Virus record (IMG/VR): IMGVR_UViG_3300022542_000276
Source: a virus
Strand: one strand, 5' to 3'
Length of the DNA stretch: 50,035 bases
Shown here in pieces: positions 5,668 to 20,255 of the stretch; position 1 is the first letter of the stretch, and each line of letters starts with the position of its first letter. The position numbers were made by a program, and so were the translations under genes. The notes below the pieces were generated by a model, which saw only the letters and a list, made by a program, of their open reading frames with translations, did no database searches and had not been told where the DNA came from.

Positions 5668-6444
5668 ATGGCTGACGAAAACAAAATATATATCAGTGCG
5701 GGTCTAATACCTAAAAAAGATACTGGAAGTGGAATATCTAATAAGGTCTATCTCAGTGCTGGTCTAACTCCTGATGTTGAATCAGTTGTTACTACTACTG
5801 CACCTACTACTCTAGCACCAACTACACTTGCGCCTACTACTTCACCTCCTACCACTCCACCTCCAACAACTATCGCACCTACTACATTACCACCTACTAC
5901 ACCTAGCCCAACTACCCCTTCTCCAACTACCTTACCTTCCACAACTATTGCACCAACAACACCTAGTCCAACAACTTTAGCACCTACAACTATATCCCCT
6001 ACCACTTTAGAACCTACAACAGTGACACCAACTACATTACCTACCACTGTACCTCCTACAACCTTAGCACCTACTACTCTTGTTCCTACTACTGAAGTCA
6101 CAACATTAGCACCTACGACAGAGGCTCCAACTACACCTGAACCTACAACAACTGCTCCTACGACTTTACTGCCGACCACACTTGCACCAACGACTATAGC
6201 CCCTACTACTTTAGTCCCTACTACTCCCAGTCCTACAACCCTAGCACCTACTACATTAGCAACTACTCTAGGACCAACTACTACCCTAACCACACCTGGA
6301 CCTACTACTGCTCCACCATCTATGCCATGTGGAGATAAAACTATAAAGATAATACAAGATAATCTAACCATAAACCTTATACAAGACAATCTAACCATCA
6401 ATCTTGCACAAGACAACTTAATCATAAACATCACACCATGCTAG
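5668..6444 (+). CDS. Mucin-like Pro/Thr-repeat protein
   Basis: 258 aa, of which about 176 aa are xPTT(L/I)A-type repeats. The N-terminus has a duplicated '(I/V)Y(I/L)SAGL(I/T)P', and the C-terminus has 3x 'IQDNLTIN'. Confidence 0.7.
   Translation: MADENKIYISAGLIPKKDTGSGISNKVYLSAGLTPDVESVVTTTAPTTLAPTTLAPTTSPPTTPPPTTIAPTTLPPTTPSPTTPSPTTLPSTTIAPTTPSPTTLAPTTISPTTLEPTTVTPTTLPTTVPPTTLAPTTLVPTTEVTTLAPTTEAPTTPEPTTTAPTTLLPTTLAPTTIAPTTLVPTTPSPTTLAPTTLATTLGPTTTLTTPGPTTAPPSMPCGDKTIKIIQDNLTINLIQDNLTINLAQDNLIINITPC
5791..6318 (+). repeat. Coding tandem array of APTT(L/I)-type Pro/Thr repeats
   Basis: Residues 42-217 of the 5668..6444 product. The antisense 'VVG' ORF 5748..6434 is a by-product of this array. 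Confidence 0.9.
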
Positions 6445-6454
6445 GAATATAACA

Positions 6455-6814
6455 ATGGAACAGATTAAATGCTACAAAGATAGAAACAATACTTTTTGGA
6501 TAAAACTATACAAAGACAACATTATCCTAACCCCTGCTGAAATGGCTGTGATTACAAAGTTTGAAATAAAACATCAAGGAACCTACTACAACTCTACTGA
6601 TAACCCAACTGGATTCACTCGAGACGATGCAAATGGCAGAGTCAAAATCAAACCTTTTGAACTTGATTTACCAACTTCAAAAGACCTTGTAGAATTCCTA
6701 GTCTACGACGCTGGCGACAACACTAACGGACTATACTGGACTACCTTTGAACTATCAATAAGAAACGATGTACTTATACCTACTACACTTGCTCCCACTA
6801 CTGCAGCACCATAA
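6455..6814 (+). CDS. Hypothetical virion-arm protein with a C-terminal PT tail
   Basis: 119 aa ending 'IPTTLAPTTAAP*' (nt 6776-6811). Confidence 0.6.
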   Translation: MEQIKCYKDRNNTFWIKLYKDNIILTPAEMAVITKFEIKHQGTYYNSTDNPTGFTRDDANGRVKIKPFELDLPTSKDLVEFLVYDAGDNTNGLYWTTFELSIRNDVLIPTTLAPTTAAP

Positions 6815-6825
6815 GGATATTTAAT

Positions 6826-6850
6826 ATATCGTTTAATAATTAAACGAACT
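6826..6850. repeat. 25-nt dyad element, copy 4
   Basis: atatcgtttaataattaaacgaact, followed directly by 'ggagaaacca' and ATG 6861 (portal). Confidence 0.9.
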
Positions 6851-6860
6851 GGAGAAACCA

Positions 6861-9800
6861 ATGCCTTATATATCAACTGGAGAACCAACTACTCCTGGTA
6901 AAACAACTATGGACTACTCTAGAATGTCCTTTGACTACGACTATCCTAACAACCTAAACCTAAAGCCAGGCAGTAAACTCCACGATAGGATAAAAAGTAA
7001 GATTTGGCAGCGTGCTAGGGAATCCCGCAATGAAATGTCTAAACGATTCAAATCCTGGAAAGAAATAGACAAAACTATGACTGTCTACATCCCTTTAAAA
7101 GACAAAGAAAAAGAACTTAGAGAAAAAGACCCTACTAAACCCGTATCTATCGTAATCCCTTACTCTTACTCAGTCCTTGAATCCCTCATGACTTACATGT
7201 CTATGGCATTCTTCCAGGACCCTATATTCAGATATGAAGGTGTAGAAGACTCAGACACTATCGGTGCTATGTTAATGGAACTAGTTATCAAAACACACTG
7301 TATCAAAAGTAAAGTCCCATTAGCTATCCACACTATACTTAAAGACAGCTTTAAATACGGCATAGGCATTGGAATACCTGGATGGACTAAACAAAATGGC
7401 AGAGTACCCATCAGATCTAATTCAATAACTAATAGCACCCTAGGCACTCAAACAACACAGCAAGTAGAATTCATAGACAAACTAGTCTACGAGGGCAATA
7501 ACTTAACAAATATCGACCCTTACTTATGGTTCCCTGACCCTTCTGTCTCAAGTGATAAAATCCAAGACGGTGAATTTATAGGCTGGTTAGATCGTGACAA
7601 CTACATGAACATGTTATCTAACGAAGCATCTTCAAATGGCGAAATCTTCAATGTTAAGTATCTAAAAGCTAAAAAATGGAAAAGGTCTTCACTCTCAATA
7701 GATGAAAGTGAAAGGGAAACAAAGTTCGGTGGAACATCTAAAGAACATCGTGGATTAACCACTTCGACCAATCCAGTAGATAACATAAAAATGTACATTA
7801 ACTTAATTCCAAAAGACTGGGGAATCGGCCAAGGTGAATACCCAGAAAAGTGGTTCTTTAACTTAGCCGCTGACGACATTATTACAGAAATGTATCGAGC
7901 TGATCACAATCATGGAATGTATCCTATGGCTATAGCCAGTCCTGAATACGACGGATATACTATAACCCCTATTGGCCGGATGGAACTTTTAACAGGTTCA
8001 CAAGAAACAATAAACTTCCTTTTTAACTGTTATGATGACAAAACTGAAGTACTAACAGATGTTGGATGGATTAATTTGTCTAAGGCAAAAGAGTCAAATA
8101 TGAATGTTGCTACAGTAGACCCTAAAAATGGATCTATGTGGTTTGAAGAACCTAAACAGTGGTTTGAGTATGACTATGATGATATACTAAACACATTTGA
8201 GTCTAAGAGATATAGTTTATCTGTGACTCCAAATCATAGTATGTTTGGTAAATATAGATACTCTAACAAACCTGAATTTAAGCCTGCTAATCTATTACAT
8301 AATAGAAGTAAATGGGATGAGTTTAAGATTCCTACAACTGTACAATTTATAGGTATTCAACTAAACTATACAGAGATACCTCCAGCAAAACGAAAAGGTA
8401 ATACTGGTAGACTACCTAGACAATCTCCAGTTAATATAAGTCCTGATATATTACCTGGATTTCTTGGTTGGTTACTCAGTGATGGAAGTATAAATATAGG
8501 TAAAAGTAGTGGGACTTATACAGTAACTATAAAGCAGGTTAAAGAGAAATACTTTAATGAGATAGACTATTTTACCAAAAATCTTCCATTTCATGTAGGT
8601 AAATACTTTAGTAAAAAACAATCTTCATGGCAGTGGAGTATAACTGATAAGGGATTTTATAGTTGGTTGAAGGACAACTGCTATCATGGAGGAACAACTG
8701 GAGAGTTTAAAGAAGTTCCTGATATTATAAGGAATGCTGATAGATTTACCTTAAATAGGTTCCTTGAGTCTTTCATACATGGAGATGGGCATGAGATAGA
8801 AGGACATAAAAACTTAATTCAGATAGGCACCGAAAGTAAACAACTATCTGATGACTTACAAGAGATAGCTATAAAACTTGGGTATAGTTGCTCTATTAGA
8901 AATACATGTACTAGTACAGGTAAGCCTTTCTGGTACTTAAATATAAACAAGAATGCTCCATGGGCTACTATAACAGACAAAAATTCATCTGAAGTCTACT
9001 ACAAAGGTAAAGTATACTGCTTTGAAAACTCTACTCATCTAACTATAATCAGACGTAATGGGAAAGTATCTATATGTGGACAGAGTCATATAGCTAATGT
9101 CCGCAAGGCTGTAAACGATATGTTCGTGGTCGACCCTTACCTAATAAACATAAATGATTTAACAAAGCCTGGCGCTGGAAAGATAATAAGGACTCGCCGT
9201 CCTGCCTGGGGACATGGTGTAAAGGGAGCGGTAGAACAACTAATGGTCAATGACATTACTAGATCCAACCTAGCTGACGTTCAGTATATGACTAACACTA
9301 TGGATCGTCTATTCGGCACTGATTCTTCAATGGCTGGTGTTATGCGACAGGGAGGTCCTGAGCGACTAACTAAAGGTGAATTTCAAGGCACACGTGGCTC
9401 AGCTATTTCCAGACTACAACAAACTGCTATGATCATAGGTATGCAATTCATGCAAGACATAGGCACTATGTTTGCTGTTCACACTCAACAAAATATGACT
9501 ACTGAAGCCTTCATAAATACCACTGGAAGATATGCTGGACAGTTAGCCAAAATCTATGGCCCAGAAGCTACAAAGATCGCAGTCTCACCTATGGACCTAG
9601 CAATTGCTACAGACTTAATCGTCCGAGACGGTTCAATCCCAGGAGGAAACTTCTCTGAAGCCTGGCTACAAATGTTTAAAACTATTGGCTCCTCAGAACA
9701 ACTAATGCAAGAATTTGATATAACAAGAATCTTCATGTATATAGCGCAAGAACTCGGTGCTAAGAATGTAGAAGACTTCAAACGTAATGTAGATCGAATC

Positions 9801-9878
9801 CAGCCACAAGTACAACCTAACGCACAAGTAACTCAGCAAGTACAAGCTGGAAATTACATACCAGTAGGAGAAACATGA
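6861..9878 (+). CDS. Portal protein interrupted by an intein (653-aa extein plus 352-aa intein)
   Basis: The size after intein removal, the position between TerL and scaffold/capsid, and extein segments such as 'DPYLWFPDPSVS' and 'GPERLTKGEFQGTRG' are portal-like from memory. Confidence 0.75.
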   Translation: MPYISTGEPTTPGKTTMDYSRMSFDYDYPNNLNLKPGSKLHDRIKSKIWQRARESRNEMSKRFKSWKEIDKTMTVYIPLKDKEKELREKDPTKPVSIVIPYSYSVLESLMTYMSMAFFQDPIFRYEGVEDSDTIGAMLMELVIKTHCIKSKVPLAIHTILKDSFKYGIGIGIPGWTKQNGRVPIRSNSITNSTLGTQTTQQVEFIDKLVYEGNNLTNIDPYLWFPDPSVSSDKIQDGEFIGWLDRDNYMNMLSNEASSNGEIFNVKYLKAKKWKRSSLSIDESERETKFGGTSKEHRGLTTSTNPVDNIKMYINLIPKDWGIGQGEYPEKWFFNLAADDIITEMYRADHNHGMYPMAIASPEYDGYTITPIGRMELLTGSQETINFLFNCYDDKTEVLTDVGWINLSKAKESNMNVATVDPKNGSMWFEEPKQWFEYDYDDILNTFESKRYSLSVTPNHSMFGKYRYSNKPEFKPANLLHNRSKWDEFKIPTTVQFIGIQLNYTEIPPAKRKGNTGRLPRQSPVNISPDILPGFLGWLLSDGSINIGKSSGTYTVTIKQVKEKYFNEIDYFTKNLPFHVGKYFSKKQSSWQWSITDKGFYSWLKDNCYHGGTTGEFKEVPDIIRNADRFTLNRFLESFIHGDGHEIEGHKNLIQIGTESKQLSDDLQEIAIKLGYSCSIRNTCTSTGKPFWYLNINKNAPWATITDKNSSEVYYKGKVYCFENSTHLTIIRRNGKVSICGQSHIANVRKAVNDMFVVDPYLININDLTKPGAGKIIRTRRPAWGHGVKGAVEQLMVNDITRSNLADVQYMTNTMDRLFGTDSSMAGVMRQGGPERLTKGEFQGTRGSAISRLQQTAMIIGMQFMQDIGTMFAVHTQQNMTTEAFINTTGRYAGQLAKIYGPEATKIAVSPMDLAIATDLIVRDGSIPGGNFSEAWLQMFKTIGSSEQLMQEFDITRIFMYIAQELGAKNVEDFKRNVDRIQPQVQPNAQVTQQVQAGNYIPVGET
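8028..9083 (+). mobile_element. Intein with a LAGLIDADG homing-endonuclease domain
   Basis: Starts at Cys390 'CYDDKTEVLTDVG' (block A). Block B is 'LSVTPNHSMF'. The LAGLIDADG motifs are 'FLGWLLSDGSI' and 'FLESFIHGDGH'. Block F is 'VYCFENSTHLTIIRRNG'. It ends '...VSICGQ' and the +1 residue is Ser. Hand counts of single 60-nt lines gave 27-37% GC inside versus about 47% in the upstream flank. Confidence 0.8.
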
Positions 9879-10174
9879 TGGAAGAAACTAACGAAACAGT
9901 TATTAATTCTACTAAAATTCAAATAGAAGAATTTAAAGAGTCGATCGTTTGGTTAGACATAGTCAATGAACTTAATGTATGGAAAAAGGGATTTGAGATA
10001 GAAATGAACAACATAGTAGATGATGCAAAAGAAGACAATCCATCTACAGCAGCTATCTTAATGCATATGGGAAATATAAGTGGTAGAATAAAGACTGTAG
10101 AATATATCAAGAGTTTACCAGATATGTTCTTAGAAATTTTAAAAATGAAGGCAGAAGAAACTAACAATAACTAA
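9875..10174 (+). CDS. Hypothetical protein
   Basis: 99-aa ORF with an ATGATG overlap with the portal stop. Confidence 0.6.
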   Translation: MMEETNETVINSTKIQIEEFKESIVWLDIVNELNVWKKGFEIEMNNIVDDAKEDNPSTAAILMHMGNISGRIKTVEYIKSLPDMFLEILKMKAEETNNN

Positions 10175-10187
10175 TGGAGAACACTAA

Positions 10188-11000
10188 ATGGGAATGTTAG
10201 ATGAAATTAAAAAGATGGGAAAAACACTAATGGGTGGAGAGGAAGAACTAACTACAGAAACTCCAAACACAGACACACCTAAAACAGACGCCCCTGGAAC
10301 TTCTGTCCCTACCACAGAAATTCCAATAGACACTCTTGAAACAGATACACCTTCTACAAACACTCCAGTTACATCTACACCTACAACCGAAATACCAGAC
10401 GAATCTGCTACATTAAAAGCTGAACTAGAACTACTACGTAATGAAGTCGAAAAACTAAAATCTCCCACTCCTACCAATGCACCTACAACTGAAGCATCTA
10501 TAGACGAAGAAAACTTTATGAAAGAACTAGACTTTGATACTATAACTAGCAATCCTGAAGAATTCAACAAGCTTCTAAATCTTGTATATAAAAAAGGTGT
10601 ATTGGCAGCGAGGGATGAAGTAAAGAATGGTTCCAAAGAAGTTATCAAAACTTTGCCTAACTTAATAAGCGACAATATCTCGGTAATCCAAACACTAGAA
10701 AAAGTAAGCAATGATTTCTATTCAGACAATGAAGACCTTAAACCATATAAAGAAAATGTAGCTATAATCTTCGGCGAGATTGCATCTGCTAACCTTGACA
10801 AAACATATACCGAGAACTTATCATTAACTGGCGATGAAGTCAGGAAACGACTTAATCTAACAAAACCTGAAACAAAACCTGAAACAAAACCCAAGCCACC
10901 TAAATTACCTACTAACAAAGGTAACAAAAGGTCAAACCAAACCGAGCCAAAAGGCATAGCTGATGAACTAGCTGCTATGAACAAGGCTCTCGGAATATAA
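10188..11000 (+). CDS. Putative scaffolding protein
   Basis: 270 aa, acidic and coiled-coil-like, lying between portal and capsid. It has a T/P-rich acidic N-terminal region (nt ~10251-10403) and a 'KPETKPETKPKPPK' repeat. Confidence 0.45.
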   Translation: MGMLDEIKKMGKTLMGGEEELTTETPNTDTPKTDAPGTSVPTTEIPIDTLETDTPSTNTPVTSTPTTEIPDESATLKAELELLRNEVEKLKSPTPTNAPTTEASIDEENFMKELDFDTITSNPEEFNKLLNLVYKKGVLAARDEVKNGSKEVIKTLPNLISDNISVIQTLEKVSNDFYSDNEDLKPYKENVAIIFGEIASANLDKTYTENLSLTGDEVRKRLNLTKPETKPETKPKPPKLPTNKGNKRSNQTEPKGIADELAAMNKALGI

Positions 11001-11011
11001 GGAGAAATACT

Positions 11012-11479
11012 ATGAGTTTAGAAGATCGTGGCGCTCAGCATGATAAAATAGTTGTAGACAAATATCATGGACCTATCGCCAACTATACAATGACAACTAG
11101 AGACTACATACTACGTCCAGCTGCAGGCCCTGCCACTGGCGCATTCACTATAACTTTACCGCCAGTGACTGAGGCAAAAGGTAGATTTTACTCCCTTATT
11201 GCCCGCGACGCTGACGGTACAAATACTATCACTATCCAAGACCGAGATGAGAGTGAATGCTGGGATGGTGATATTACTTTCAATGGTAAATGTGATAAGG
11301 TATTACTATACTCTGACGGTCTAGCCTGGCTTGTACTTGCTTCAGTCCTAACCGCTACTGGCACTACAGCTGCACCTACAACTATTGCACCTACAACTAT
11401 TGCCCCAACTACCCTAGCTACAACTGTTGCACCTACTACAGCTGCACCTACTACTCTGTCTCCGACTACAGCTGCTTAA
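11012..11479 (+). CDS. Putative head decoration / minor capsid protein with a C-terminal PT array
   Basis: 155 aa, immediately upstream of the capsid gene. The last 42 aa are 'TATGTTAAPTTIAPTTIAPTTLATTVAPTTAAPTTLSPTTAA'. Confidence 0.4.
   Translation: MSLEDRGAQHDKIVVDKYHGPIANYTMTTRDYILRPAAGPATGAFTITLPPVTEAKGRFYSLIARDADGTNTITIQDRDESECWDGDITFNGKCDKVLLYSDGLAWLVLASVLTATGTTAAPTTIAPTTIAPTTLATTVAPTTAAPTTLSPTTAA
11351..11476 (+). repeat. Coding APTT(I/L) Pro/Thr repeat array
   Basis: Residues 114-155 of the 11012..11479 product. Confidence 0.9.
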
Positions 11480-11484
11480 CAATC

Positions 11485-11509
11485 AGACCGTTTAATTAAT
11501 AAACAATCT
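11485..11509. repeat. 25-nt dyad element, copy 5
   Basis: agaccgtttaattaataaacaatct. Lies 21 nt upstream of the capsid ATG, before 'aggaga'. Confidence 0.8.
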
Positions 11510-11530
11510 ATCCAAATAGGAGAATATATT

Positions 11531-12832
11531 ATGTTTCTTGGAATGCGTGCGACTGACGACTGGGTTGCAAATCAGCGACCCTTAAACTGGCGTCAACAAA
11601 TACTATATCTATATCCAAACGGAATGGCTCCACTTACAGCCATACTCTCAATGTCTGGCTCTGCAAGTGTAGACGATCCACATTTTAACTGGTGGACTCA
11701 AACACAGTCAACTGTACAGGGTGCAGTAGCTGGAGTATTCACTAATGCCGACTTATCAACTGCCTATGTTACAGGCGCAATTGCTGGAGATACCTTATTC
11801 ATATCTATAACTACTCTCCTTGCTAACCGTATCAGACAAGGACATCAAATCCTCCTCCGTGATGAGTCTGACTATCGTGTAGATATAGTCGGCAAAGTCA
11901 CTTCGGTAACTCGTGGCACTACCAACTCAGTCCTTGCTGTTAGATTACTCGAAGCTGATGACAACTCACCTGACAATAACCTGGCCGATTGCGACAACTT
12001 CAAAATCATAGGCAATATTAACCCTGAGGGCGGTGAAATGCCTGACGCCATTGCACTAGATCCAGTTCAAGTCTACAACTATACCCAGATCTTTCGTACC
12101 CCTCTATCAATGACCCGTACTGCACTTAAAACCAAACTACGCACTAATGATCAGTATCAAAAAGCAAAATCTGAAGCCCTTGAAATGCACTCATGGGAAA
12201 TGGAACTTGCTTTTATCTGGGGAATTATGTCACAGAACATAGGTGACAATGGTAAACCTGAGCGTACCACTAGAGGTGTCATACCTTTCATTCGTCAATA
12301 TGCACCTAACAATGTAGATGACTACACCTTAAACACCACTTACGCCGGTCAAACTTGGGTTACTGGAGGCGAAACCTGGCTAAAAGCAATGCTTGAACTT
12401 ATGTTTAGATACGGTGCTGAAGACAAACTATGTCTATGTGGAAGCGGCTTTCTACTCGGCATAGATGCACTTGCTATGACTGGTGGACAGGTTAACTTAC
12501 AACCTGCCCAAAAAATGTACGGTATGCAGATTCGTGAGTGGCTTACACCTTTTGGCTCTATCTACATGAAAACTCACCCTCTATTCAGCTTCGATGCTAC
12601 TACCCGCCACATGGGTATCATTCTTGAACCCAAAGAACTCGGATACAAGTACATAGATGACACTACATTCTTTGGTGAAAGCACTTCAAAACAGCACTCT
12701 TCTGGATATGGCCAGAGACGAATTGACGGACTTAACGAGGAATATCTTACTGAGTGCGGCCTTGAATTTGGCCTATCTCAAAAGTGTGGTATTCTTAATG
12801 GAGTTGGACTAAATAACGGACTAACTCCATAA
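11531..12832 (+). CDS. Major capsid protein
   Basis: 433 aa, in the position after scaffold/decoration. The N-terminal 'QRPLNWRQQILYLYPNGMAPLTAIL...DDPHFNWWTQ' matches a podophage capsid family as I recall it. A strong hairpin follows the stop. Confidence 0.65.
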   Translation: MFLGMRATDDWVANQRPLNWRQQILYLYPNGMAPLTAILSMSGSASVDDPHFNWWTQTQSTVQGAVAGVFTNADLSTAYVTGAIAGDTLFISITTLLANRIRQGHQILLRDESDYRVDIVGKVTSVTRGTTNSVLAVRLLEADDNSPDNNLADCDNFKIIGNINPEGGEMPDAIALDPVQVYNYTQIFRTPLSMTRTALKTKLRTNDQYQKAKSEALEMHSWEMELAFIWGIMSQNIGDNGKPERTTRGVIPFIRQYAPNNVDDYTLNTTYAGQTWVTGGETWLKAMLELMFRYGAEDKLCLCGSGFLLGIDALAMTGGQVNLQPAQKMYGMQIREWLTPFGSIYMKTHPLFSFDATTRHMGIILEPKELGYKYIDDTTFFGESTSKQHSSGYGQRRIDGLNEEYLTECGLEFGLSQKCGILNGVGLNNGLTP

Positions 12833-12845
12833 ACTAACTTTAATT

Positions 12846-12877
12846 GATCTGGACTAAACTATGTGTTAGTCCAGATC
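12846..12877 (+). terminator. Perfect 12-bp stem hairpin after the capsid gene (terminator/stabiliser-like)
   Basis: gatctggactaa / actatgtg loop / ttagtccagatc. No strong U-tract follows. The right arm shares AGATC with dyad copy 6. Confidence 0.5.
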
Positions 12878-13442: not shown

Positions 13443-13453
13443 ATGATTTAGTC

Positions 13454-13478
13454 AGTTCATTCAATAATTAAACGATCT
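13454..13478. repeat. 25-nt dyad element, copy 7 (degenerate left arm)
   Basis: agttcattcaataattaaacgatct, followed by 'atggaggtagtaga' and ATG 13493. Confidence 0.75.
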
Positions 13479-13492
13479 ATGGAGGTAGTAGA

Positions 13493-14146: not shown

Positions 14147-14161
14147 GGAAAGGTTGTAAAT

Positions 14162-14884: not shown

Positions 14885-14885
14885 T

Positions 14886-15032
14886 ATGAAAGAGGATGAA
14901 AACGGCAAGGAAAGTAGAAAGAACAAAAAAATATCTAAACATAAAAGAATAATAAAAAAATATCTAAAGAACTATAAACTAAATAGAATAGTCTTTAGAT
15001 ACAAAAAAAGGAAACCTAAACATGGATATTAA
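14886..15032 (+). CDS. Possible small, highly basic protein (48 aa), not in the ORF track
   Basis: ATG 14886 is preceded by 'agagga'. Product is MKEDENGKESRKNKKISKHKRIIKKYLKNYKLNRIVFRYKKRKPKHGY*. It overlaps ATG 15022 by 11 nt and contains a direct repeat 'aaaaaaatatctaaa' x2. Confidence 0.3.
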   Translation: MKEDENGKESRKNKKISKHKRIIKKYLKNYKLNRIVFRYKKRKPKHGY

Positions 15033-15426
15033 TTCTATTATAACTAAAGAAGAATTTGAAAATATTAAAGAACTCAACTACAGCACATTCAACACATACT
15101 TAATTAGACTAATCAAACTATGCGTCGAAGAATCACTTAAATCAATACCTTCTATAATGACTCACTTAACAAGTCAAATCTCTTATCTAAAAGGTCTAAG
15201 TGACGACTTCTACAAAAACAATAAAGACTTAGATACAGACTCAAACAGAAAAATCATGGCTCAGGCTATAGAAACCATAGAAAGTGAAAACCCTGGAAAG
15301 TCCTACACTGAAATCCTCAAACTAGCCGCTCCAAAAGCTAGAAAAATAATATCTAAAGTCAATCAAGTTCCAGAACCTAAAAAGGTAGAACTAAAACAAT
15401 TTGAAAGTCGTCTAGGAAAACTATAA
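15022..15426 (+). CDS. Hypothetical protein
   Basis: 134-aa ORF with an 'aaggaaa' SD. Confidence 0.6.
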   Translation: MDINSIITKEEFENIKELNYSTFNTYLIRLIKLCVEESLKSIPSIMTHLTSQISYLKGLSDDFYKNNKDLDTDSNRKIMAQAIETIESENPGKSYTEILKLAAPKARKIISKVNQVPEPKKVELKQFESRLGKL

Positions 15427-15923
15427 TGTATGAATATACTTTAACAATCAAAGGTGCTTTAAGTACAGGATTAAGAAAGACAGAAGACAATCCTAAGAAT
15501 ATAGGTGCGCTTACTTTAGCAAAAGGAATTATTCAGAAATCAACTAAGTTAGTTAACCTAGATCATTTAATCACTTTTGACATTTCATCTATTGAATCCT
15601 GTACTTTTCCATTCCCTCAGATATTCCAATTAAGAGAATGGACTTTGATTTGCACTCCTACTAAAATCTACACCTTTGATGGGAGTAGTCTTACATCTGT
15701 ATACACAGCCGATGAAGGATCTACATGGACTATAGGTGACTTTTACAACTATATAATAATGACTAACGGTAAAGAATTAATAACATTAGATCCAGAAGAT
15801 GGTACTTGGAGTAAGTATCTTGATTGTAAGATACCTTACTGCTTATGCCTATGTGATGTGAATGGACAGATATTTGTAGGTGGGCCTGAGGTAAGTATTA
15901 GCGCTGGATTTTTAGGGGAGTAA
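15426..15923 (+). CDS. Hypothetical virion-arm protein
   Basis: 165-aa ORF with a TAATG overlap with the upstream gene. Confidence 0.6.
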   Translation: MYEYTLTIKGALSTGLRKTEDNPKNIGALTLAKGIIQKSTKLVNLDHLITFDISSIESCTFPFPQIFQLREWTLICTPTKIYTFDGSSLTSVYTADEGSTWTIGDFYNYIIMTNGKELITLDPEDGTWSKYLDCKIPYCLCLCDVNGQIFVGGPEVSISAGFLGE

Positions 15924-15927
15924 TGAT

Positions 15928-16572
15928 ATGGCTAAGAATGAAACTTTTTCAGTATTAACTGGTGGTGGAGCAGATTCTTTAGATGGGATAACAACACCTT
16001 CAAATAATGACTTTGCTTTTGGTATAGTAAGTGATCTACATCATGCTTATATTTTTGATAGCTCTGAAGTAGGTGGAGAGAACTCACCTTATCAGATAAA
16101 GGCTAATGACGCAACTACAGGTAGTTGGATGCTTGTAGGATTTAAAGGGGCTTTTAGTCATGTGTTCGCGACCAGTGATGCTGGACAAAGTATTACACAA
16201 AATACAGATACTGACCTTATTTTTGAAGATGAAGTTCATGATCTTTTAAGTGAATATATTCATACAACTGGTATATTTACAGCTAAATATACTGGATACT
16301 ATCAAGTAAATGTCGGCATTTTATTTGATACTGCTGCATGGACAGCTGGAAATAATATAGCACTTTCTTTAGGTGGGACAAATACTTATAAATTACAGAG
16401 ATTTCCAATACCACTTACAACAAGTCAATATTATAGTATGCGTGGAAGTTTGTGCATCCCTTTGTCAGTAGGTAGTACGGTTAAAGCTATTGTTAATCAT
16501 AATGGTTCTGGAGCAAGGACTCTTATTGCATCGTCAGTATGGAATCATATTTCAATAGATCGTATAGCATAG
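15928..16572 (+). CDS. Putative receptor-binding protein with a C1q/TNF-like jelly-roll
   Basis: 'GIFTAKYTGYYQVNVGI' ... 'LCIPLSVGSTVKAIV' resembles C1q globular-domain strands. Lies immediately upstream of the large fibre gene. Confidence 0.4.
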   Translation: MAKNETFSVLTGGGADSLDGITTPSNNDFAFGIVSDLHHAYIFDSSEVGGENSPYQIKANDATTGSWMLVGFKGAFSHVFATSDAGQSITQNTDTDLIFEDEVHDLLSEYIHTTGIFTAKYTGYYQVNVGILFDTAAWTAGNNIALSLGGTNTYKLQRFPIPLTTSQYYSMRGSLCIPLSVGSTVKAIVNHNGSGARTLIASSVWNHISIDRIA

Positions 16573-16580
16573 GTTAAACA

Positions 16581-19500
16581 ATGTCAAGACTCTGGACAGA
16601 TAATTCAACAGATCGAGTATGGACAGATAATTCTACTGATAGGCTGTGGAATGATAGTACATTTACTACTGCTAGTCCTACTACATTGGCTACTACAGTT
16701 GCTCCAACTACTATAGTTACAACTGTAGCACCTACTACTTTACCTCCTACTACTATATTACCACCTACGACTTCTCCACCTACTACATTAGTTCCTACCA
16801 CTTTAGGCCCAACCACAGTAGGTCCTTCAACTGCCGTACCAACAGTAGGTCCGACTACTATAGCACCTGAACCTAAGCATGGTTATGCACTGGTAAGGAA
16901 TGGTTGGTGTGAAGATGGATTTAAGAGATGTAAGTGGTCTAGTCTTGGAAGGACTATGGCAAGTCAGAGTAGTAATGCTATAGATGAAAGAGGTAGAATG
17001 TTTACTTGGGGACAAAATTATTATTCCCAAAGTGGTCAAGGATTAGGTATTCCAGCTGGAGAATTATCACAGATAGAATATGCTACACAGATTGGTGCAG
17101 AGAGTAATTGGGTTAAGGCCGAATCAGGAGAGTTGTCAACTATAGCAATTAATAAAGATGGTGAACTATGGGGATGGGGTAATGCAGATAATGACTGTGA
17201 GCCTTTTGGTCTACCACCTTTTTCTGGGGATAATGGTGATGCTAGATTTTACTACCCAAGAATGGTAACTCCAGGATATGTATGGAAAGACTTCACCCAT
17301 GACTATTATCATACTATGGCTATAGATGAAAATGATAAGTTATGGATCTGGGGAATGAACTATGATGAATGTTTTGGGATGAGAGGAGTTCCTATACCTT
17401 ATAATAATGGTTCAGCTACACCGATCCAGCATACATATCTAACTGATGATGTAAAGTTAATAGATTGTGAATTGTTAGGTAATGTAGTTGTAACAACTAA
17501 TGATAAAGTATATGTATTCGGTGAAGGATTTTATACCTTCTTTGGATTTCCTGATCTAAAAGAGCCAAGAGAAATAACTGGATTGATTATTCCTTTAGGT
17601 GAAACTATAACTGAAATCACCTCATCTAATATGGGAATAACTGCATTATTGTCTAATGGTGAACTATGGGCAGCTGGACAGAGTTATATCTTTGGTGATA
17701 ACCGTACTGCATACCCTGCTGGATCAGACACTTTTGTTAAGATCCCTTTCTTTATTGGAAAAGAAGTTGTAAAAGTAAGGAATACATCACTTGGTGCTAC
17801 AAGTATGTTTGTGATAGATGCTAATGGAAACATTTGGGGATGGAGTTATACTACTCAATTCTATCCTGGAAATAGTTTACCAATTCCAGCTTCATATAAT
17901 GAGTTTATGCTAGTCGCTTCAGAATATGAAGGGCAATATAAATGGATAGACATGATAAACAATGAGCATCAACAATGTTATCAAACAATAGATAAAAATG
18001 GATATCTTTATACATGGGGACGACAGTGGTGGGGACCACACTTAGCATTAGGTGCTGCATATGATCAATCTGCAGCAGACGACGATCCTAATATTACAGA
18101 TATAGTAAAGGCAAGACTATATGCAGGTAAAGCTGCAAGAGCACTTGACTACAAACAAGAATTTACTACTTTAAATACTATACCAGTCGGTGAATCGAAC
18201 TACATCCAACCACTTGACCAAGATAAACGACATAAACCCTGTGGACACTGGCATAAAAGACTGTTTGAAGAGGAAGTTGAATATCCTGTAAACTGCTGGA
18301 TGCCTAGTCTAGCAGTCCATAATGAGTTAATTTTCTTCGTTGCATCTGGCAAACATCAACAACTTCATATAGCTGACACCGGCAGTGAAGTGTTATTCTT
18401 TACTTATAATATAGATACTGGAGTATGGGAGTGGTTACTGTACGAACAAAACATAAACGCATCTAACTTTCCAGGCGGTGCAGCTATCGACATAGACATC
18501 TATGCATTCTTTAACTATAAAGCAGATATATCTGGTGATAGACTAAATGAAATATTTACAAATCCAGCTATGGGAATCTGGGTACTACACAATGATATAT
18601 TAAAGTATACCGAGTGGACAGATAACATACCAATGTCTGGACAAAATAAACTAGGTGTGCATTCTACTGGATTAGTCGCTTTGGCTTACACTAATACAGC
18701 AGGACAAGTTTTAATAAAGGTATCAACCGACTTCGGTGTTACATTTAGTAATGTAAAAACACTGCCAACACTATCTGCAAGAAAAGACTATAGTTTAATA
18801 GTAGACCCTAATGGATATATTTATCTAGCACACCAGATATCAACCACATCTATAAAGATTGAAAGGTCAATAAATAATGGAGTTAGCTGGACTACACAGA
18901 TAGTTTCTAACTATATAATGCCTAACATAACCAAAGTCAAATTAATCTCTGACAATGCTATGCTATTCTTAATCTGTGCTAGTGAGACGGCTACAGCTAT
19001 AGAACGCAGTGAGAATGATGGAGTTAGTTGGACAACTTCGGGAGCCGGAGAACCTGGAAGTTCTATAGTCGGCTCAGTCTGTAATATATCTGACGGAGAT
19101 GATAACTATGCTATAGTATTAGTAGATGGTGATACTATTGAATATAAAACTTTTCCATCAGGTGAACAATATACAGTCTACGGAACTATGTATAACTATA
19201 TCTGGGACTTTAACTATGGAGATTATACTTGGTTAGAAAGAGATATCGCGCATCTTAGTGTGGATAGTGAAAATATGGATATAAGTGTGCAAGAATCAAA
19301 TTCTACACTAGAAGGCTACAATGGAAGATTTGCTTATTCATCTTACGGATTTTTCTCTGCACCTGATAATCATGTAGCGATAGTAATATCAAGTAATAAA
19401 GGAGCTAATTGGCAGGTAATATCTGTCCCACTTGGCTACAATAACGAGAATGAAATTTCAGATTTTAAAGGCTGTCCTTTATTCTGTATCAAAGATATTC

Positions 19501-19604
19501 CATACCTTAATCACATATGGAGTTTTGAAAAAAGTGATTGGAATGAAAAGTTTGTAGAGCAAAAAGATAAATACGTTAAAGTTAACAAATGTGAATGTAA
19601 ATAG
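16581..19604 (+). CDS. Tail fibre/spike: WTDNSTDR repeats, PT linker, RCC1-like propeller, BNR/Asp-box propeller
   Basis: RCC1-like 'G(E/K)LW(G/I)WG' blades occur at least 6 times (MFTWGQN, ELWGWGN, KLWIWGM, ELWAAGQ, NIWGWSY, YLYTWGR). Asp-box 'S-x-(D/N)-x-G-x-(S/T)-W' occurs 4 times (STDFGVTF, SINNGVSW, SENDGVSW, SSNKGANW). Confidence 0.7.
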   Translation: MSRLWTDNSTDRVWTDNSTDRLWNDSTFTTASPTTLATTVAPTTIVTTVAPTTLPPTTILPPTTSPPTTLVPTTLGPTTVGPSTAVPTVGPTTIAPEPKHGYALVRNGWCEDGFKRCKWSSLGRTMASQSSNAIDERGRMFTWGQNYYSQSGQGLGIPAGELSQIEYATQIGAESNWVKAESGELSTIAINKDGELWGWGNADNDCEPFGLPPFSGDNGDARFYYPRMVTPGYVWKDFTHDYYHTMAIDENDKLWIWGMNYDECFGMRGVPIPYNNGSATPIQHTYLTDDVKLIDCELLGNVVVTTNDKVYVFGEGFYTFFGFPDLKEPREITGLIIPLGETITEITSSNMGITALLSNGELWAAGQSYIFGDNRTAYPAGSDTFVKIPFFIGKEVVKVRNTSLGATSMFVIDANGNIWGWSYTTQFYPGNSLPIPASYNEFMLVASEYEGQYKWIDMINNEHQQCYQTIDKNGYLYTWGRQWWGPHLALGAAYDQSAADDDPNITDIVKARLYAGKAARALDYKQEFTTLNTIPVGESNYIQPLDQDKRHKPCGHWHKRLFEEEVEYPVNCWMPSLAVHNELIFFVASGKHQQLHIADTGSEVLFFTYNIDTGVWEWLLYEQNINASNFPGGAAIDIDIYAFFNYKADISGDRLNEIFTNPAMGIWVLHNDILKYTEWTDNIPMSGQNKLGVHSTGLVALAYTNTAGQVLIKVSTDFGVTFSNVKTLPTLSARKDYSLIVDPNGYIYLAHQISTTSIKIERSINNGVSWTTQIVSNYIMPNITKVKLISDNAMLFLICASETATAIERSENDGVSWTTSGAGEPGSSIVGSVCNISDGDDNYAIVLVDGDTIEYKTFPSGEQYTVYGTMYNYIWDFNYGDYTWLERDIAHLSVDSENMDISVQESNSTLEGYNGRFAYSSYGFFSAPDNHVAIVISSNKGANWQVISVPLGYNNENEISDFKGCPLFCIKDIPYLNHIWSFEKSDWNEKFVEQKDKYVKVNKCECK
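16665..16874 (+). repeat. Coding PTT-type Pro/Thr repeat array (70 aa)
   Basis: Residues 29-98 of the fibre: 'TTASPTTLATTVAPTTIVTTVAPTTLPPTT...GPTTIAPEP'. Confidence 0.9.
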
Positions 19605-19626
19605 ATCGTTTAATTATTAAACAATA
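19602..19626. repeat. 25-nt dyad element, copy 8 (degenerate right arm)
   Basis: agatcgtttaattattaaacaatat. Begins in the fibre stop codon and is followed by 'ggagacaaact' and ATG 19639. Confidence 0.8.
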
Positions 19627-19638
19627 TGGAGACAAACT

Positions 19639-20070
19639 ATGGCATCTCAAACGGCTAACAACTACAAAGAACTTTTAGCTAAAAAAGTTATCGACTATGC
19701 AGCTGATGTATTTAAGATCATCTTAATGGAACCTGGATTTGCCTTCAGCAGATCCGCTCATGAAATATATTCTGACATATCAGCCTTCGAATTACCTACC
19801 GCACTAGGCTATACCGTAGGTGGAGCAACCTTAGCTGGAATAACTATCACAAACGATGCAGTTTTAGCAGCTGCTATCATGGATTGGAATAACGTAGCAT
19901 GGCCCATCTCAGGTGGAGACTTACAGGCTAGTGGCGCTATCATATATGACTTTACTGTAGCTGCACCTGACATTAAACCACTAATTGGCTACATAGACTT
20001 CGGTGGCACTATGACGACATACAACAGCGGAACATTTACAGTAGCTAACATTGCAGTAGGGCATAAATAA
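19639..20070 (+). CDS. Hypothetical virion-arm protein
   Basis: 143-aa ORF with a GGAG SD. Confidence 0.6.
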   Translation: MASQTANNYKELLAKKVIDYAADVFKIILMEPGFAFSRSAHEIYSDISAFELPTALGYTVGGATLAGITITNDAVLAAAIMDWNNVAWPISGGDLQASGAIIYDFTVAAPDIKPLIGYIDFGGTMTTYNSGTFTVANIAVGHK

Positions 20071-20081
20071 GGAGATAAACT

Positions 20082-20255
20082 ATGAGTACATCTCCTCCTA
20101 CTACACTATCACCAACTACGTTAGCGCCAACAACTTTGGCTCCTACTACACTTGCACCTACTACTCTAACTCCTACTACCACTCCACCTACATCATTAGC
20201 ACCAACTACAACTTTAACAACCCTTACACCTACTACCCCTAGTCCACGAAATCCA
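20082..20255 (+). repeat. Coding APTTL Pro/Thr repeat array
   Basis: Residues 1-58 of the 20082..21347 product. The antisense ORF 20045..20281 is a by-product. Confidence 0.9.

What the first reader, a model, noticed from the sequence alone, without database searches (positions are those of the whole stretch)
5668..20255. Mucin-like APTT(L/I) Pro/Thr arrays on at least six virion-arm proteins
The same low-complexity module, repeats of x-P-T-T-(L/I/V)-A, is appended to otherwise unrelated proteins in the virion arm:
- Essentially all of the 5668..6444 product (176 aa of repeats).
- The C-terminus of the 6455..6814 product.
- The C-terminus of the decoration-like 11012..11479 product.
- The N-terminal linker of the 1007-aa fibre (70 aa).
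- The N-terminus of the 20082..21347 product (58 aa).
- A related T/P-rich acidic block in the scaffold-like protein, and a TPKPTPTPTPT tail on the terS-like protein.

Such Ser/Thr/Pro arrays are classical O-glycosylation substrates (mucins, bacterial S-layer and pilin linkers). Virion glycosylation by phage-encoded glycosyltransferases has been described for some mycobacteriophages, as I recall. Together with the glycosyltransferase/methyltransferase cassette and the SQD1 homologue in this genome, this suggests a self-contained virion glycosylation system.

The shared repeat DNA could also drive recombination or length variation between these genes. The arrays generate the long antisense 'VVG' ORFs seen in the track.
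Basis: partly seen in the sequence, partly recalled or inferred. Interest (0 to 1): 0.7.

Follow-up and report, generated by a model that had tools for sequence, protein, structure and literature searches.

The report
Phage virion mucin-like glycosylation module
This uncultured phage carries threonine/proline "mucin-like" repeats on five virion-arm proteins, and across related phages these repeats occur only with a glycosyltransferase shaped like animal mucin O-glycosylating enzymes and a sulfo-sugar synthase, so the phage probably sugar-coats its own particle.

Summary
Five virion-arm proteins carry 5-residue x-P-T-T-x arrays: 351 aa in total, 41% Thr and 23% Pro, with 71 PTT on the + strand against 7.5 in shuffles. 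The terS-like and scaffold-like blocks are related but differ in sequence.

- **Fold:** The 884-1888 enzyme has an invariant D-x-H and SWGG(G/A)(D/E) motif. Its AlphaFold model's top 49 PDB matches are all polypeptide GalNAc-transferases.
- **Co-variation with tails:** Among 26 related phages, the glycosyltransferase and a Thr-rich tail on the 11012-11479 orthologue occur together in 13/13. The tail is absent in all 13 that lack the enzyme, with about 5 independent changes.
- **Sulfo-sugar synthase:** The SQD1-like UDP-sulfoquinovose synthase lies about 34 kb away. It is present in 11 of 12 glycosyltransferase-positive genomes and 0 of 10 negative ones.
- **Other lineages:** Two unrelated phage lineages place a D-x-H glycosyltransferase, one fused to a methyltransferase, directly beside a PTT-array protein.

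The recombination idea is not supported, because array codons are scrambled and exact identity is at most 16 nt.

Best reading: phage-encoded, mucin-type-like O-glycosylation of virion proteins, possibly with sulfoquinovose. This is a new variant of the virion glycosylation known from mycobacteriophages.

The parts
884..1888 (+). Glycosyltransferase, 334 aa, GT-A fold, ppGalNAc-T-like. It is soluble, with no lectin domain. This is the proposed initiating O-glycosyltransferase.
   Evidence: - Pfam Glycos_transf_2, E=1.2e-10.
- D96-S-H98, W197GGGD201 and H225 are invariant in 30 homologues and in a 43%-identity subclass.
- AF2 pLDDT 87.
- The Foldseek PDB top 49 hits are all polypeptide GalNAc-transferases, E about 1e-12.
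1878..2447 (+). Class I SAM methyltransferase overlapping the GT stop by 11 nt. Proposed to methylate the glycan.
   Evidence: - Pfam Methyltransf_23, E=9.5e-6, just below the cut-off.
- GT family members are fused to MT domains in both orders: P0034, P0251, P0263 and L209 572-2035.
- Aligns to the L209 fused MT domain, E=5e-5.
4627..5667 (+). Right-handed beta-helix protein, in the same frame as the array gene and separated from it only by a TAA. Probably the globular partner of the array protein.
   Evidence: - Pfam Beta_helix, E=3.3e-7.
- Junction reads CAG TAA ATG.
- In relatives, a ConA-like lectin domain and arrays form one polypeptide in this slot.
5668..6444 (+). Array protein, 258 aa. 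The x-P-T-T-x array is aa 39-222 (nt 5782-6333, 31 PTT).
   Evidence: -.
- Orthologous slot proteins in relatives carry 22-88 PTT.
6455..6814 (+). 119-aa protein with the C-terminal tail IPTTLAPTTAAP (nt 6776-6811).
   Evidence: -.
- Proteins of about 115 aa with PTT tails sit in the same slot, just before the portal gene, in L009, L015, L025, L031, L040, L048, L050, L057, L059 and L079.
10188..11000 (+). Scaffold-like protein with an acidic T/P block (nt 10251-10400). A related but different repeat type.
   Evidence: -.
- Thr in the first 140 aa is 5-19 in GT+ relatives against 0-9 in GT- relatives, MWU p=2e-4. GT- relatives have poly-E/D/K or PEPEP linkers instead.
11012..11479 (+). Fibre-anchor-type beta-sandwich protein (aa 20-112) with a C-terminal PTT tail (aa 114-155, nt 11351-11476).
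   Evidence: - AF2: core pLDDT above 90; the tail has no secondary structure and pLDDT about 63.
- Foldseek matches N-terminal anchor domains of tailspikes and tail fibres.
- Tail length is 7-77 aa in 117 homologues.
- The tail is Thr-rich only in GT+ genomes.
16581..19604 (+). 1007-aa fibre. It has an N-terminal LWTDNSTDR x3 repeat, then a PTT array (aa 29-82, nt 16665-16826), then an RCC1-like propeller and a region with Asp-box-like motifs.
   Evidence: -.
- Pfam RCC1-like domain and RCC1_2.
20082..21347 (+). 421-aa conserved virion-arm protein with an N-terminal PTT array (aa 2-60, nt 20085-20261).
   Evidence: -.
- Orthologues occur in all relatives (27-38% identity).
- N-terminal arrays occur only in array-rich genomes: L015, L023, L052, L079.
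35312..36490 (-). SQD1-like UDP-sulfoquinovose synthase, the proposed supplier of the sugar donor.
   Evidence: - NCBIfam UDP-sulfoquinovose synthase, E=7e-141, 470 bits, below the 575 cut-off.
- Full-length match to Arabidopsis SQD1 (1qrr), E=5e-105, with GTMGEYGTP and YHLSK conserved.
- Present in 11/12 GT+ and 0/10 GT- genomes.
378..440 (+). TPKPTPTPTPT tail of the terS-like protein, whose gene runs off the window start. A different repeat type; it may not belong to the system.

Best explanation
The phage encodes its own cytoplasmic protein O-glycosylation system.

**Proposed mechanism**
- During late infection, the soluble GT-A enzyme from 884-1888 transfers a UDP-activated sugar onto threonines of the disordered x-P-T-T-x arrays. 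This enzyme is ppGalNAc-T-like, with Mn-binding D-x-H plus a distal His.
- The arrays sit at termini or linkers of fibre-like and anchor proteins.
- The 5-residue period puts a Pro at +3 of the second Thr and at -1 of the first. From my own knowledge, this is the context polypeptide GalNAc-transferases prefer.
- The SQD1-like enzyme most likely makes the donor, UDP-sulfoquinovose.
- The adjacent methyltransferase modifies the glycan.
- In relatives, extra GT domains and epimerases extend or vary the glycan.

**Proposed result**
The product is a dense, hydrophilic and possibly anionic 'bottle-brush' on the virion. It would stiffen and extend the stalks and tails and mask or protect the particle surface.

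**Shown versus inferred**
- Shown: the arrays, the enzyme fold and motifs, and the three-way co-variation.
- Inferred: that transfer happens, which sugar is used, and what the coat is for.
For: **Arrays**
- They are real, periodic, Thr-dense and disordered.
- 67 of 144 array Thr have Pro at +3 and 56 have Pro at -1.

**Enzyme**
- D-S-H, SWGG(G/A)(D/E) and HIGP are invariant.
- The best single-sequence PDB hit is a ppGalNAc-T, aligning DSH to DAH and WGGGD to WGGEN.
- The Foldseek top 49 hits are all ppGalNAc-Ts.

**Co-variation**
- A Thr-rich tail on the 11012 orthologue occurs in 13/13 GT+ and 0/13 GT- phages, Fisher p=1.9e-7, with about 5 parsimony changes on a TerL tree.
- GT- genomes covered 65-95% have no GT, no SQD1 and no clustered PTT.
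- SQD1 is in 11/12 GT+ against 0/10 GT- genomes, p=3.4e-5, despite lying in the other genome arm.
- In L032 the major capsid protein itself carries a PTT tail.

**Independent lineages**
- L209-type: a PTT-array gene abuts a GT-MT fusion gene.
- L207: a D-C-H GT gene abuts a 307-aa PTT-array gene.

**Glycosylation island**
- Relatives' GT islands carry NAD-dependent epimerases/dehydratases, MTs and extra GTs.
- Family members are fused to further GT or MT domains.

**Precedent**
- Mycobacteriophages glycosylate capsid and tail-tube proteins with their own GTs (as summarised in PMC12363180).
- Corndog has an O-MT plus GT cassette in its structural operon (PMC4351075).
Against: - There is no direct evidence of any glycan.
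- Sequence-level membership in GT27 is not established. Pfam detects only the generic Glycos_transf_2 half. The profile-to-PDB search ranks TarP and TarS (teichoic-acid GTs) above the GalNAc-Ts. Foldseek E-values for GT27 (1e-12) and TarP (3e-10) are not far apart.
- Co-variation counts are not fully phylogenetically independent, and GT- genomes are not 100% covered.
- One GT+ genome (3300018080_000031) lacks SQD1 and has a non-Thr tail on the 11012 orthologue, although it has arrays elsewhere.
- Virion location of the array proteins rests on synteny and fold only.
- The scaffold-like and terS-like proteins would not be on the mature particle.
Confidence: 0.68

Rival explanations
1. The arrays are unmodified Pro/Thr-rich extended linkers or entropic bristles. 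The GT (with SQD1) acts on something else: host envelope glycolipid, LPS or teichoic-acid-type polymers, or sulfolipid synthesis as an auxiliary metabolic function.
For: - PT linkers are common spacers.
- The best profile-to-PDB hits are the wall-teichoic-acid GTs TarP and TarS.
- A viral UDP-sulfoquinovose synthase has previously been read as a host-directed AMG (PMC7785012).
- From my own knowledge, some sulfolipid pathways use GT-A enzymes.
Against: - This does not explain why Thr-rich tails, arrays and even the scaffold's Thr content appear only in GT+ genomes, with other tail types (GYDY, large domains, poly-E/D) at the same positions in GT- genomes.
- It does not explain why GT genes abut array genes in two unrelated lineages.
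- Terminal tails link nothing, so they are not linkers.
- No integrase-like ORF was evident in the ORF lists (not searched specifically), so seroconversion is less plausible.
Confidence: 0.15
2. The arrays are glycosylated, but by the host's own protein O-glycosylation machinery. The phage GT only elaborates or is unrelated.
For: From my own knowledge, many bacteria O-glycosylate Ser/Thr-rich linkers. The host is unknown.
Against: - Virions assemble in the cytoplasm, whereas most bacterial general O-glycosylation is periplasmic or extracytoplasmic.
- The perfect GT/array co-variation would not be expected if the host enzyme sufficed.
- The GT fold is that of initiating peptide O-glycosyltransferases.
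Confidence: 0.08
3. The arrays matter mainly at the DNA level, as recombination or slippage cassettes that shuffle or phase-vary fibre genes.
For: The same module sits in five genes, and array length differs widely among relatives.
Against: - Exact identity is at most 16 nt between arrays and 15 nt within the 552-nt array.
- Synonymous codon use matches the genome, so the repeat is maintained at protein level.
- TRF matches are only 63-80%.
Confidence: 0.04
4. The 5-residue repeats fold into a regular structure, such as a pentapeptide-repeat beta-helix or a collagen-like rod, rather than a disordered glycan carrier.
For: The strict 5-residue period with a hydrophobic residue (L/I/V) once per unit.
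Against: - AF2 predicts no secondary structure and pLDDT about 63 for the 42-aa tail of the 11012 product.
- One Pro per five residues and 41% Thr fit mucin/extensin-type extended chains. Pfam gives only sub-threshold Extensin-like hits on relatives.
- The long 5668 array itself was not modelled.
Confidence: 0.03

Closest known systems
Mycobacteriophage virion glycosylation (Che8, Corndog, Myrna; Freeman et al. 2023, cited via PMC12363180 and PMC12582341; Corndog cassette in PMC4351075)
   Same: - Phage-encoded glycosyltransferases, with an O-methyltransferase in Corndog, lie in or next to the structural genes.
- They modify structural proteins. From my own recollection, the acceptors are C-terminal extensions of the capsid and tail-tube subunits.
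- Here there are C-terminal tails on the 11012 and 6455 products, and on the capsid protein itself in relative L032.
   Different: - The phage lineage is different: an SU10-type capsid podophage-like genome from environmental metagenomes, host unknown.
- The acceptors are long tandem 5-residue PTT arrays on five fibre or anchor proteins, not short tails on the major capsid and tube.
- The enzyme resembles ppGalNAc-T.
- A UDP-sulfoquinovose synthase co-varies with the GT.
- Homology to Che8 gp110 or Corndog gp38 was not tested, and the original paper was not available to me.
Eukaryotic mucin-type O-glycosylation (polypeptide GalNAc-transferases, CAZy GT27, acting on PTS tandem-repeat domains)
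   Same: - GT-A fold with D-x-H instead of D-x-D, a WGGE-like motif and a distal His.
- The top 49 structural matches are GT27 enzymes.
- The acceptors are Pro/Thr-rich, disordered tandem repeats of variable number, with Pro at +3 and -1 of Thr.
   Different: - No signal anchor and no ricin-type lectin domain.
- Only about 15-20% identity; the sequence match is not significant (E=0.058); no Glyco_transf_7C Pfam hit.
- The enzyme is cytoplasmic.
- The donor is probably not UDP-GalNAc.
Sulfoquinovose-containing protein glycans of Sulfolobus (Agl3 UDP-sulfoquinovose synthase; my own knowledge) and SQD1/SqdB of sulfolipid synthesis
   Same: An SQD1-family enzyme with conserved catalytic motifs, which in archaea feeds protein glycosylation.
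   Different: - The archaeal case is N-linked and assembled on a lipid carrier. Here it would be direct O-linkage on Thr by a soluble GT in a bacteriophage.
- The phage enzyme scores below the NCBIfam equivalog cut-off (470 against 575 bits).
Giant-virus glycosylated fibrils and Pro/Thr-rich proteins
   Same: - From my own knowledge, these viruses encode their own glycosylation machinery and heavily glycosylated surface fibres.
- (PTTxx)x4 arrays were found on many giant-virus MAG contigs.
   Different: The genomes and enzymes are different. No link between arrays and GTs was tested in those contigs.
Pro/Thr linkers of bacterial cellulases and S-layer or pilin O-glycosylation
   Same: From my own knowledge, these have similar composition, an extended conformation and frequent O-glycosylation.
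   Different: Those are secreted proteins modified by host systems. Here the arrays are cytoplasmically assembled virion proteins with a phage-borne enzyme set.

Membership tests
CAZy GT27 / polypeptide GalNAc-transferase | GT-A fold most similar to GT27 catalytic domains | tested here: met
   - AF2 model, pLDDT 87.
- Foldseek PDB ranks 1-49 are all ppGalNAc-Ts, E 6e-13 to 2e-10, TMq 0.52-0.68.
- TarP is at rank 50.
CAZy GT27 / polypeptide GalNAc-transferase | D-x-H metal-binding motif plus a distal His | tested here: met
   - D96-S-H98 and H225 are invariant in 30 homologues, in the 43% subclass, in L209 (DAH) and in L207 (DCH).
- DSH aligns to DAH of TgGalNAc-T3.
- Equating H225 with the third Mn ligand rests on my memory of the GalNAc-T2 sequence.
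CAZy GT27 / polypeptide GalNAc-transferase | Gal/GalNAc-T motif (WGGEN...) | tested here: inconclusive
   SWGGGD or SWGGAE is conserved and aligns to WGGEN. No Pfam Glyco_transf_7C hit in any of 30 members.
CAZy GT27 / polypeptide GalNAc-transferase | Significant sequence similarity to GT27 members | tested here: not met
   - phmmer best hit is a ppGalNAc-T, but at E=0.058.
- The profile search ranks TarP (1e-4) and TarS above GalNAc-T7/T9 (3e-3 to 1e-2), over the N-terminal half only.
CAZy GT27 / polypeptide GalNAc-transferase | C-terminal ricin-type lectin domain and type II membrane anchor | tested here: not met
   The protein is 334 aa and starts directly at the first beta-strand. There is no extra domain in Pfam or in the model.
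CAZy GT27 / polypeptide GalNAc-transferase | Transfers GalNAc from UDP-GalNAc to Ser/Thr of peptides | not testable with these tools
   Needs enzymology. Co-variation with SQD1 suggests a different UDP-sugar.
Phage virion glycosylation system (mycobacteriophage type) | Phage-encoded GT(s), with or without a methyltransferase, near the structural genes | tested here: met
   GT at 884-1888 and MT at 1878-2447 lie between terS and terL. Relatives add epimerases and further GTs.
Phage virion glycosylation system (mycobacteriophage type) | Acceptor extensions on structural proteins that depend on the GT | tested here: inconclusive
   Dependence is shown only as evolutionary co-variation: 13/13 against 0/13, and 0 clustered PTT in 10 GT- genomes. 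No biochemical test.
Phage virion glycosylation system (mycobacteriophage type) | Glycan mass on virion proteins | not testable with these tools
   Needs MS or glycan staining of particles.
Phage virion glycosylation system (mycobacteriophage type) | Homology of the GT to Che8 gp110 or Corndog gp38 | not tested
   Those sequences were not retrieved.
Mucin-like (PTS) tandem-repeat domain | High Pro/Thr/Ser content in tandem repeats | tested here: met
   351 array residues: T 41%, P 23%, S 5%. Period of 5 in 39/50 intervals.
Mucin-like (PTS) tandem-repeat domain | Variable repeat number between alleles or relatives | tested here: met
   Tails of 7-77 aa in 117 homologues of the 11012 product. 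Slot proteins carry 4 to 88 PTT.
Mucin-like (PTS) tandem-repeat domain | Intrinsically disordered or extended | tested here: met
   No secondary structure and pLDDT about 63 for aa 113-155 of the 11012 product. The long 5668 array was not modelled.
Mucin-like (PTS) tandem-repeat domain | Dense O-glycosylation | not testable with these tools
   Experimental.
UDP-sulfoquinovose synthase (SQD1/SqdB/Agl3) | Full-length similarity with conserved catalytic Thr and Y-H-x-x-K | tested here: met
   1qrr, E=5e-105 over aa 3-392. GTMGEYGTP and YHLSKVH are conserved.
UDP-sulfoquinovose synthase (SQD1/SqdB/Agl3) | Score above the NCBIfam equivalog cut-off | tested here: not met
   469.6 bits against a cut-off of 575. 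The next family scores 46 bits.

The most novel reading that the evidence does not exclude
A widespread family of environmental phages, and at least two unrelated lineages, carry a compact mucin-type-like O-glycosylation system. It consists of a lectin-less, cytoplasmic relative of the animal polypeptide GalNAc-transferases. This enzyme would decorate tandem PTTxx arrays on virion fibres and anchors with sulfoquinovose, a sulfonated sugar so far known on proteins only in archaeal N-glycans, plus methylation. The result would be a 'sulfomucin' coat on a bacteriophage. It would be the first O-linked sulfoquinovose on protein. It would also be a prokaryotic-virus counterpart, or possibly an evolutionary relative, of the GT27 mucin machinery.
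Probability: 0.25. Interest if true: 0.9.

Novelty: new variant of a known kind. Interest (0 to 1): 0.75.

Why it matters
- **Scope of virion glycosylation.** Self-glycosylation of phage particles has been shown experimentally only in mycobacteriophages. A second, mechanistically distinct system in abundant uncultured phages would make virion glycosylation a general phage strategy. Its features would be tandem mucin-like acceptors, a ppGalNAc-T-like enzyme and a dedicated sulfo-sugar supply.
- **Consequences for phage biology.** It would bear on particle stability, adsorption, escape from host or grazer recognition, and the design of therapeutic phages.
- **A minimal tool.** It offers a soluble three-gene toolkit (GT, SQD1, MT) and a short portable acceptor tag (APTTL)n for making O-glycoproteins in bacteria.
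- **Reinterpretation of a viral gene.** It gives a concrete function to viral UDP-sulfoquinovose synthase genes previously read as host-directed auxiliary metabolic genes.
- **Testability.** The predictions are directly testable: +226.015 Da per site (my calculation for a sulfoquinovosyl residue), loss on D96A/H98A, and dependence on SQD1.

Tried and rejected
**Searches that led nowhere**
- Pfam and PHROGs on the array proteins and most neighbours gave no informative hits.
- phmmer to PDB for the 20082 and 14162 products gave nothing useful.
- A 50-aa fragment of the GT against PDB, meant to show the distal-His alignment, returned only noise.
- The primary mycobacteriophage paper (PMC10527164) is not held.
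- Literature searches for phage GT27, mucin-like virion proteins or threonine-rich capsid glycosylation found no prior description.
- The look-up of encoding contigs for the window's own 11012 product found no record.

**Host**
- Only two MAG contigs carry the capsid gene, one from New Zealand groundwater and one from a sulfur-cave 'Brevinema' bin. The host stays unknown.
- The nearest phage in the annotated GenBank phage collection is Desulfofustis phage LS06-2018-MD01 (51% capsid identity), which has no arrays and no GT.

**Ideas rejected or weakened**
- Recombination or slippage role: DNA identity is too low.
- Folded pentapeptide-repeat solenoid: no predicted structure.
- DUF1353 gene (455-883) as part of the system: it occurs in GT- genomes too.
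- The first SQD1 scan under-reported homologues because it finds only close relatives. The PolA-anchored loci corrected this.
- Generality across all (PTTxx)x4-bearing viral contigs could not be assessed, because the loci are short.

Full report
**What the window is.** The 50-kb window is a near-complete podophage-like genome.
- It has a terminase large subunit at 2463-4028 (assigned from the annotated Desulfofustis phage orthologue, 46% identity; no Pfam hit), an SU10-type portal at 6861-9878 with a LAGLIDADG insertion, and an SU10-type major capsid protein at 11531-12832.
- A large internal protein lies at 23908-29136, followed by a leftward replication arm with PolA.
- The nearest phage in the annotated GenBank phage collection is Desulfofustis phage LS06-2018-MD01, with 51% capsid identity.
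- IMG/VR holds at least 119 contigs with capsid proteins 72-85% identical.

**The observation.** Five + strand proteins carry the same x-P-T-T-x module:

| Product | Array (aa) | Array (nt) | PTT count |
|---|---|---|---|
| 5668-6444 | 39-222 | 5782-6333 | 31 |
| 6455-6814 | C-terminal 12 aa | 6776-6811 | 2 |
| 11012-11479 | 114-155 | 11351-11476 | 6 |
| 16581-19604 (fibre) | 29-82 | 16665-16826 | 9 |
| 20082-21347 | 2-60 | 20085-20261 | 8 |

- Together the arrays are 351 residues, 41% Thr and 23% Pro.
- Successive PTT are exactly 5 residues apart in 39 of 50 cases.
- The + strand has 71 PTT against 7.5 in shuffles, and there are no clusters elsewhere.
- The antisense 'VVG' ORFs are by-products of the arrays.
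- The terS-like tail (TPKPTPTPTPT) and the acidic T/P block of the scaffold-like protein are different flavours.
- At DNA level the arrays are codon-scrambled. Exact identity is at most 16 nt between arrays and 15 nt within the 552-nt array, and synonymous codon use equals that of other genes. The repeat is therefore maintained by selection on the peptide, not by recent duplication.

**What the carriers are.**
- The 11012 product has a confidently predicted beta-sandwich (aa 20-112) and an unstructured tail.
- Its fold matches the N-terminal particle-anchoring domains of tailspikes and tail fibres (Solidus gp83, CBA120 TSP4, T4 gp9) and many fibre-like proteins in BFVD.
- In relatives the same core carries a Thr-rich tail, a short aromatic 'GYDY' tail, or a 100-350-aa extra domain. 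It is therefore an anchor that displays a variable C-terminal module.
- The TerL-portal interval is a variable slot. In relatives it holds proteins of up to 1238 aa with as many as 88 PTT in one (truncated) ORF, some with ConA-like lectin domains.
- In the window this slot holds a beta-helix protein, followed in frame after a single TAA by the array protein.
- The fibre places its array between a short N-terminal repeat and RCC1-like and Asp-box-like domains.
- In every case the arrays sit at termini or between an anchor and a distal domain.

**The enzyme.**
- The 884-1888 product is a Pfam GT2-type enzyme.
- Thirty homologues (63-77% identity) have an invariant D96-S-H98, W197GGGD201 and H225. 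A 43%-identity subclass keeps DSH, SWGGAE and HIGP.
- The best single-sequence PDB hit is a polypeptide GalNAc-transferase. It aligns DSH to DAH and WGGGD to WGGEN, but at only E=0.058.
- A profile search gives TarP and TarS first, then GalNAc-T7/T9, over the N-terminal half only.
- The AlphaFold model (pLDDT 87) finds polypeptide GalNAc-transferases as its top 49 PDB matches (E about 1e-12, TMq up to 0.68). TarP comes at rank 50.
- The enzyme works like a ppGalNAc-T: a GT-A fold, D-x-H, and the class that initiates peptide O-glycosylation.
- Formal GT27 membership is not established. Sequence similarity is not significant, there is no lectin domain, and there is no Glyco_transf_7C hit.
- An exhaustive HMMER search of 1.84 billion representatives finds only 40 clusters at E<=1e-30. 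This is a small specialised family. Its members are repeatedly fused to further GT domains or to SAM methyltransferases in both orders.

**The comparative test.** Using TerL-, capsid- and PolA-anchored loci from IMG/VR, I scored relatives for the GT, for Thr-rich tails and arrays, and for SQD1.
- Among 26 non-redundant genomes covering both the terS-terL island and the 11012 orthologue, 13 have the GT and all 13 have a Thr-rich (A/P)TT tail.
- The other 13 lack the GT and none has such a tail. Fisher p=1.9e-7, with about five state changes on a TerL tree.
- Ten GT-negative genomes covered 65-95%, including the syntenic slot upstream of PolA, contain no GT, no SQD1 and zero clustered PTT.
- Ten GT-positive genomes all contain an SQD1 homologue about 3-3.6 kb upstream of PolA, in the opposite genome arm from the GT.
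- With the window the table is 11/1 against 0/10, p=3.4e-5.
- The one exception has a divergent GT placed downstream of terL, arrays elsewhere, no SQD1 and a non-Thr tail on the 11012 orthologue.
- Even the scaffold-like protein's linker is (S/T)TExP-type in GT-positive genomes and poly-E/D/K or PEPEP in GT-negative ones (MWU p=2e-4).
- In one relative (L032) the capsid protein itself ends in a PTT tail.
- GT islands in relatives add NAD-dependent sugar epimerases/dehydratases, methyltransferases and further GTs.

**Independent lineages.** A DNA pattern scan for (PTTxx)x4 found more than 119 viral contigs, including jumbo phages and giant-virus MAGs.
- In one unrelated phage lineage (L190, L209, L223, L253, L284, L288), a 176-aa protein ending in a PTT array is followed, stop abutting start, by a 487-aa fusion. 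The fusion joins a homologous GT (33% identity, DAH motif) to a methyltransferase.
- In another lineage (L207), a GT2 enzyme with a D-C-H motif lies directly upstream of a 307-aa PTT-array protein and downstream of a beta-solenoid fibre.

**The sugar supply.**
- The 35312-36490 product matches Arabidopsis SQD1 over its full length (E=5e-105) with the catalytic motifs conserved.
- It is by far closest to the NCBIfam UDP-sulfoquinovose synthase model, but scores below its equivalog cut-off.
- Its tight co-variation with a physically unlinked GT makes it the most likely donor-forming enzyme. This is inference.
- A viral UDP-sulfoquinovose synthase has been reported once, as a presumed host-directed auxiliary gene (PMC7785012).

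**Mechanism proposed.**
- A soluble, Mn-dependent, ppGalNAc-T-like GT O-glycosylates Thr in the disordered arrays in the cytoplasm before or during assembly.
- The 5-residue period gives Pro at +3 for 67 and Pro at -1 for 56 of 144 Thr. From my own knowledge, this is the context favoured by GalNAc-transferases.
- SQD1 supplies UDP-sulfoquinovose, the methyltransferase modifies the glycan, and other GTs extend it in relatives.
- The product is a hydrophilic, possibly anionic brush on fibres and anchors.
- What the brush does (stiffening stalks, masking the particle, resisting proteases, adhesion) is not resolved.

**Rivals.** The alternatives are:
- unmodified linkers with a GT aimed at host envelope or lipid;
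- glycosylation by the host;
- a DNA-level recombination role;
- a folded solenoid.
Each is weakened by the co-variation, the gene adjacency in unrelated lineages, the codon scrambling or the structure prediction. None is excluded without biochemistry.

**Comparison with known systems.**
- The closest known system is mycobacteriophage virion glycosylation (Freeman et al. 2023, seen only through citing papers; Corndog's O-MT/GT cassette in PMC4351075).
- This system shares the logic but differs in lineage, in acceptor architecture (tandem mucin-like arrays on several fibre or anchor proteins), in enzyme type and in the sulfo-sugar link.
- I rate it a new variant of a known kind, with interest 0.75. 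The hypothesis is now specific and cheaply testable by co-expression and mass spectrometry.

Noticed in passing
window 6861-9878 (+): The portal protein is 1005 aa against about 650 aa in relatives. It contains a LAGLIDADG homing-endonuclease domain (Pfam LAGLIDADG_3, aa 633-697), with the SU10_portal match resuming at aa 744. This looks like an intein inserted in the portal gene.
   Followed up: partly
window 5659-5673: The beta-helix gene (4627-5667) and the array gene (5668-6444) are in the same reading frame, separated only by TAA directly followed by ATG (CAG TAA ATG). In relatives a globular domain and the arrays are one polypeptide. Readthrough or a recently split gene is possible.
   Followed up: partly
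window 16587-16650 and 6352-6429: There are 9-residue tandem repeats flanking arrays: LWTDNSTDR x3 at the extreme N-terminus of the fibre, and IQDNLTINL x3 at the C-terminus of the 5668 product. They may be attachment or trimerisation motifs.
   Followed up: no
window 35312-36490 (-): A full-length SQD1-type UDP-sulfoquinovose synthase is encoded in the replication arm of a phage. It occupies a conserved slot about 3-3.6 kb upstream of PolA in all GT-positive relatives, and the slot is empty in GT-negative ones.
   Followed up: yes
window 33504-34823 (-): A fusion of a ParB-like N-terminal domain with an N6-adenine DNA methyltransferase. It is also present in the Desulfofustis phage, where it is annotated as a ParB-like partition protein.
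   Followed up: no
window 46223-46354, 47994-48063, 49378-49432: Several perfect or near-perfect short tandem repeats (ATTTGCC x4.4, a 13-mer x2.5, GCACGAA-type x7) lie in the AT-skewed, GC-skew-negative end of the window. They may be regulatory or origin/terminus elements.
   Followed up: no
L209 41-2035 (+); also L190, L223, L253, L284, L288: In an unrelated phage lineage, a 176-aa protein ending in a PTT array is immediately followed by a 487-aa glycosyltransferase-methyltransferase fusion homologous to the window's GT (33% identity).
   Followed up: partly
L207 1733-7142 (-): A third lineage has this gene order: a 1133-aa bactofilin-like beta-solenoid fibre, then a 348-aa GT2 enzyme with a D-C-H motif, then a 307-aa Cys-flanked PTT/TTE array protein.
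   Followed up: partly
L032 2327-3724 (+): In this relative the major capsid protein itself carries a C-terminal PTT tail (ATATTAAPTTLGPTTIVTTAAPTTVV), as recalled for the mycobacteriophage capsid extensions.
   Followed up: partly
window 10859-10891: A perfect 12-nt tandem repeat (AACAAAACCTGA x2.8) encodes KPETKPETKP near the C-terminus of the scaffold-like protein.
   Followed up: no
L088 10389-11339 (contig 3300018080_000031): This exceptional relative has a divergent GT (39% identity) downstream of terL instead of upstream. It has PTT arrays, no SQD1, and a non-Thr tail on the 11012 orthologue. It may be a variant system using another sugar.
   Followed up: partly
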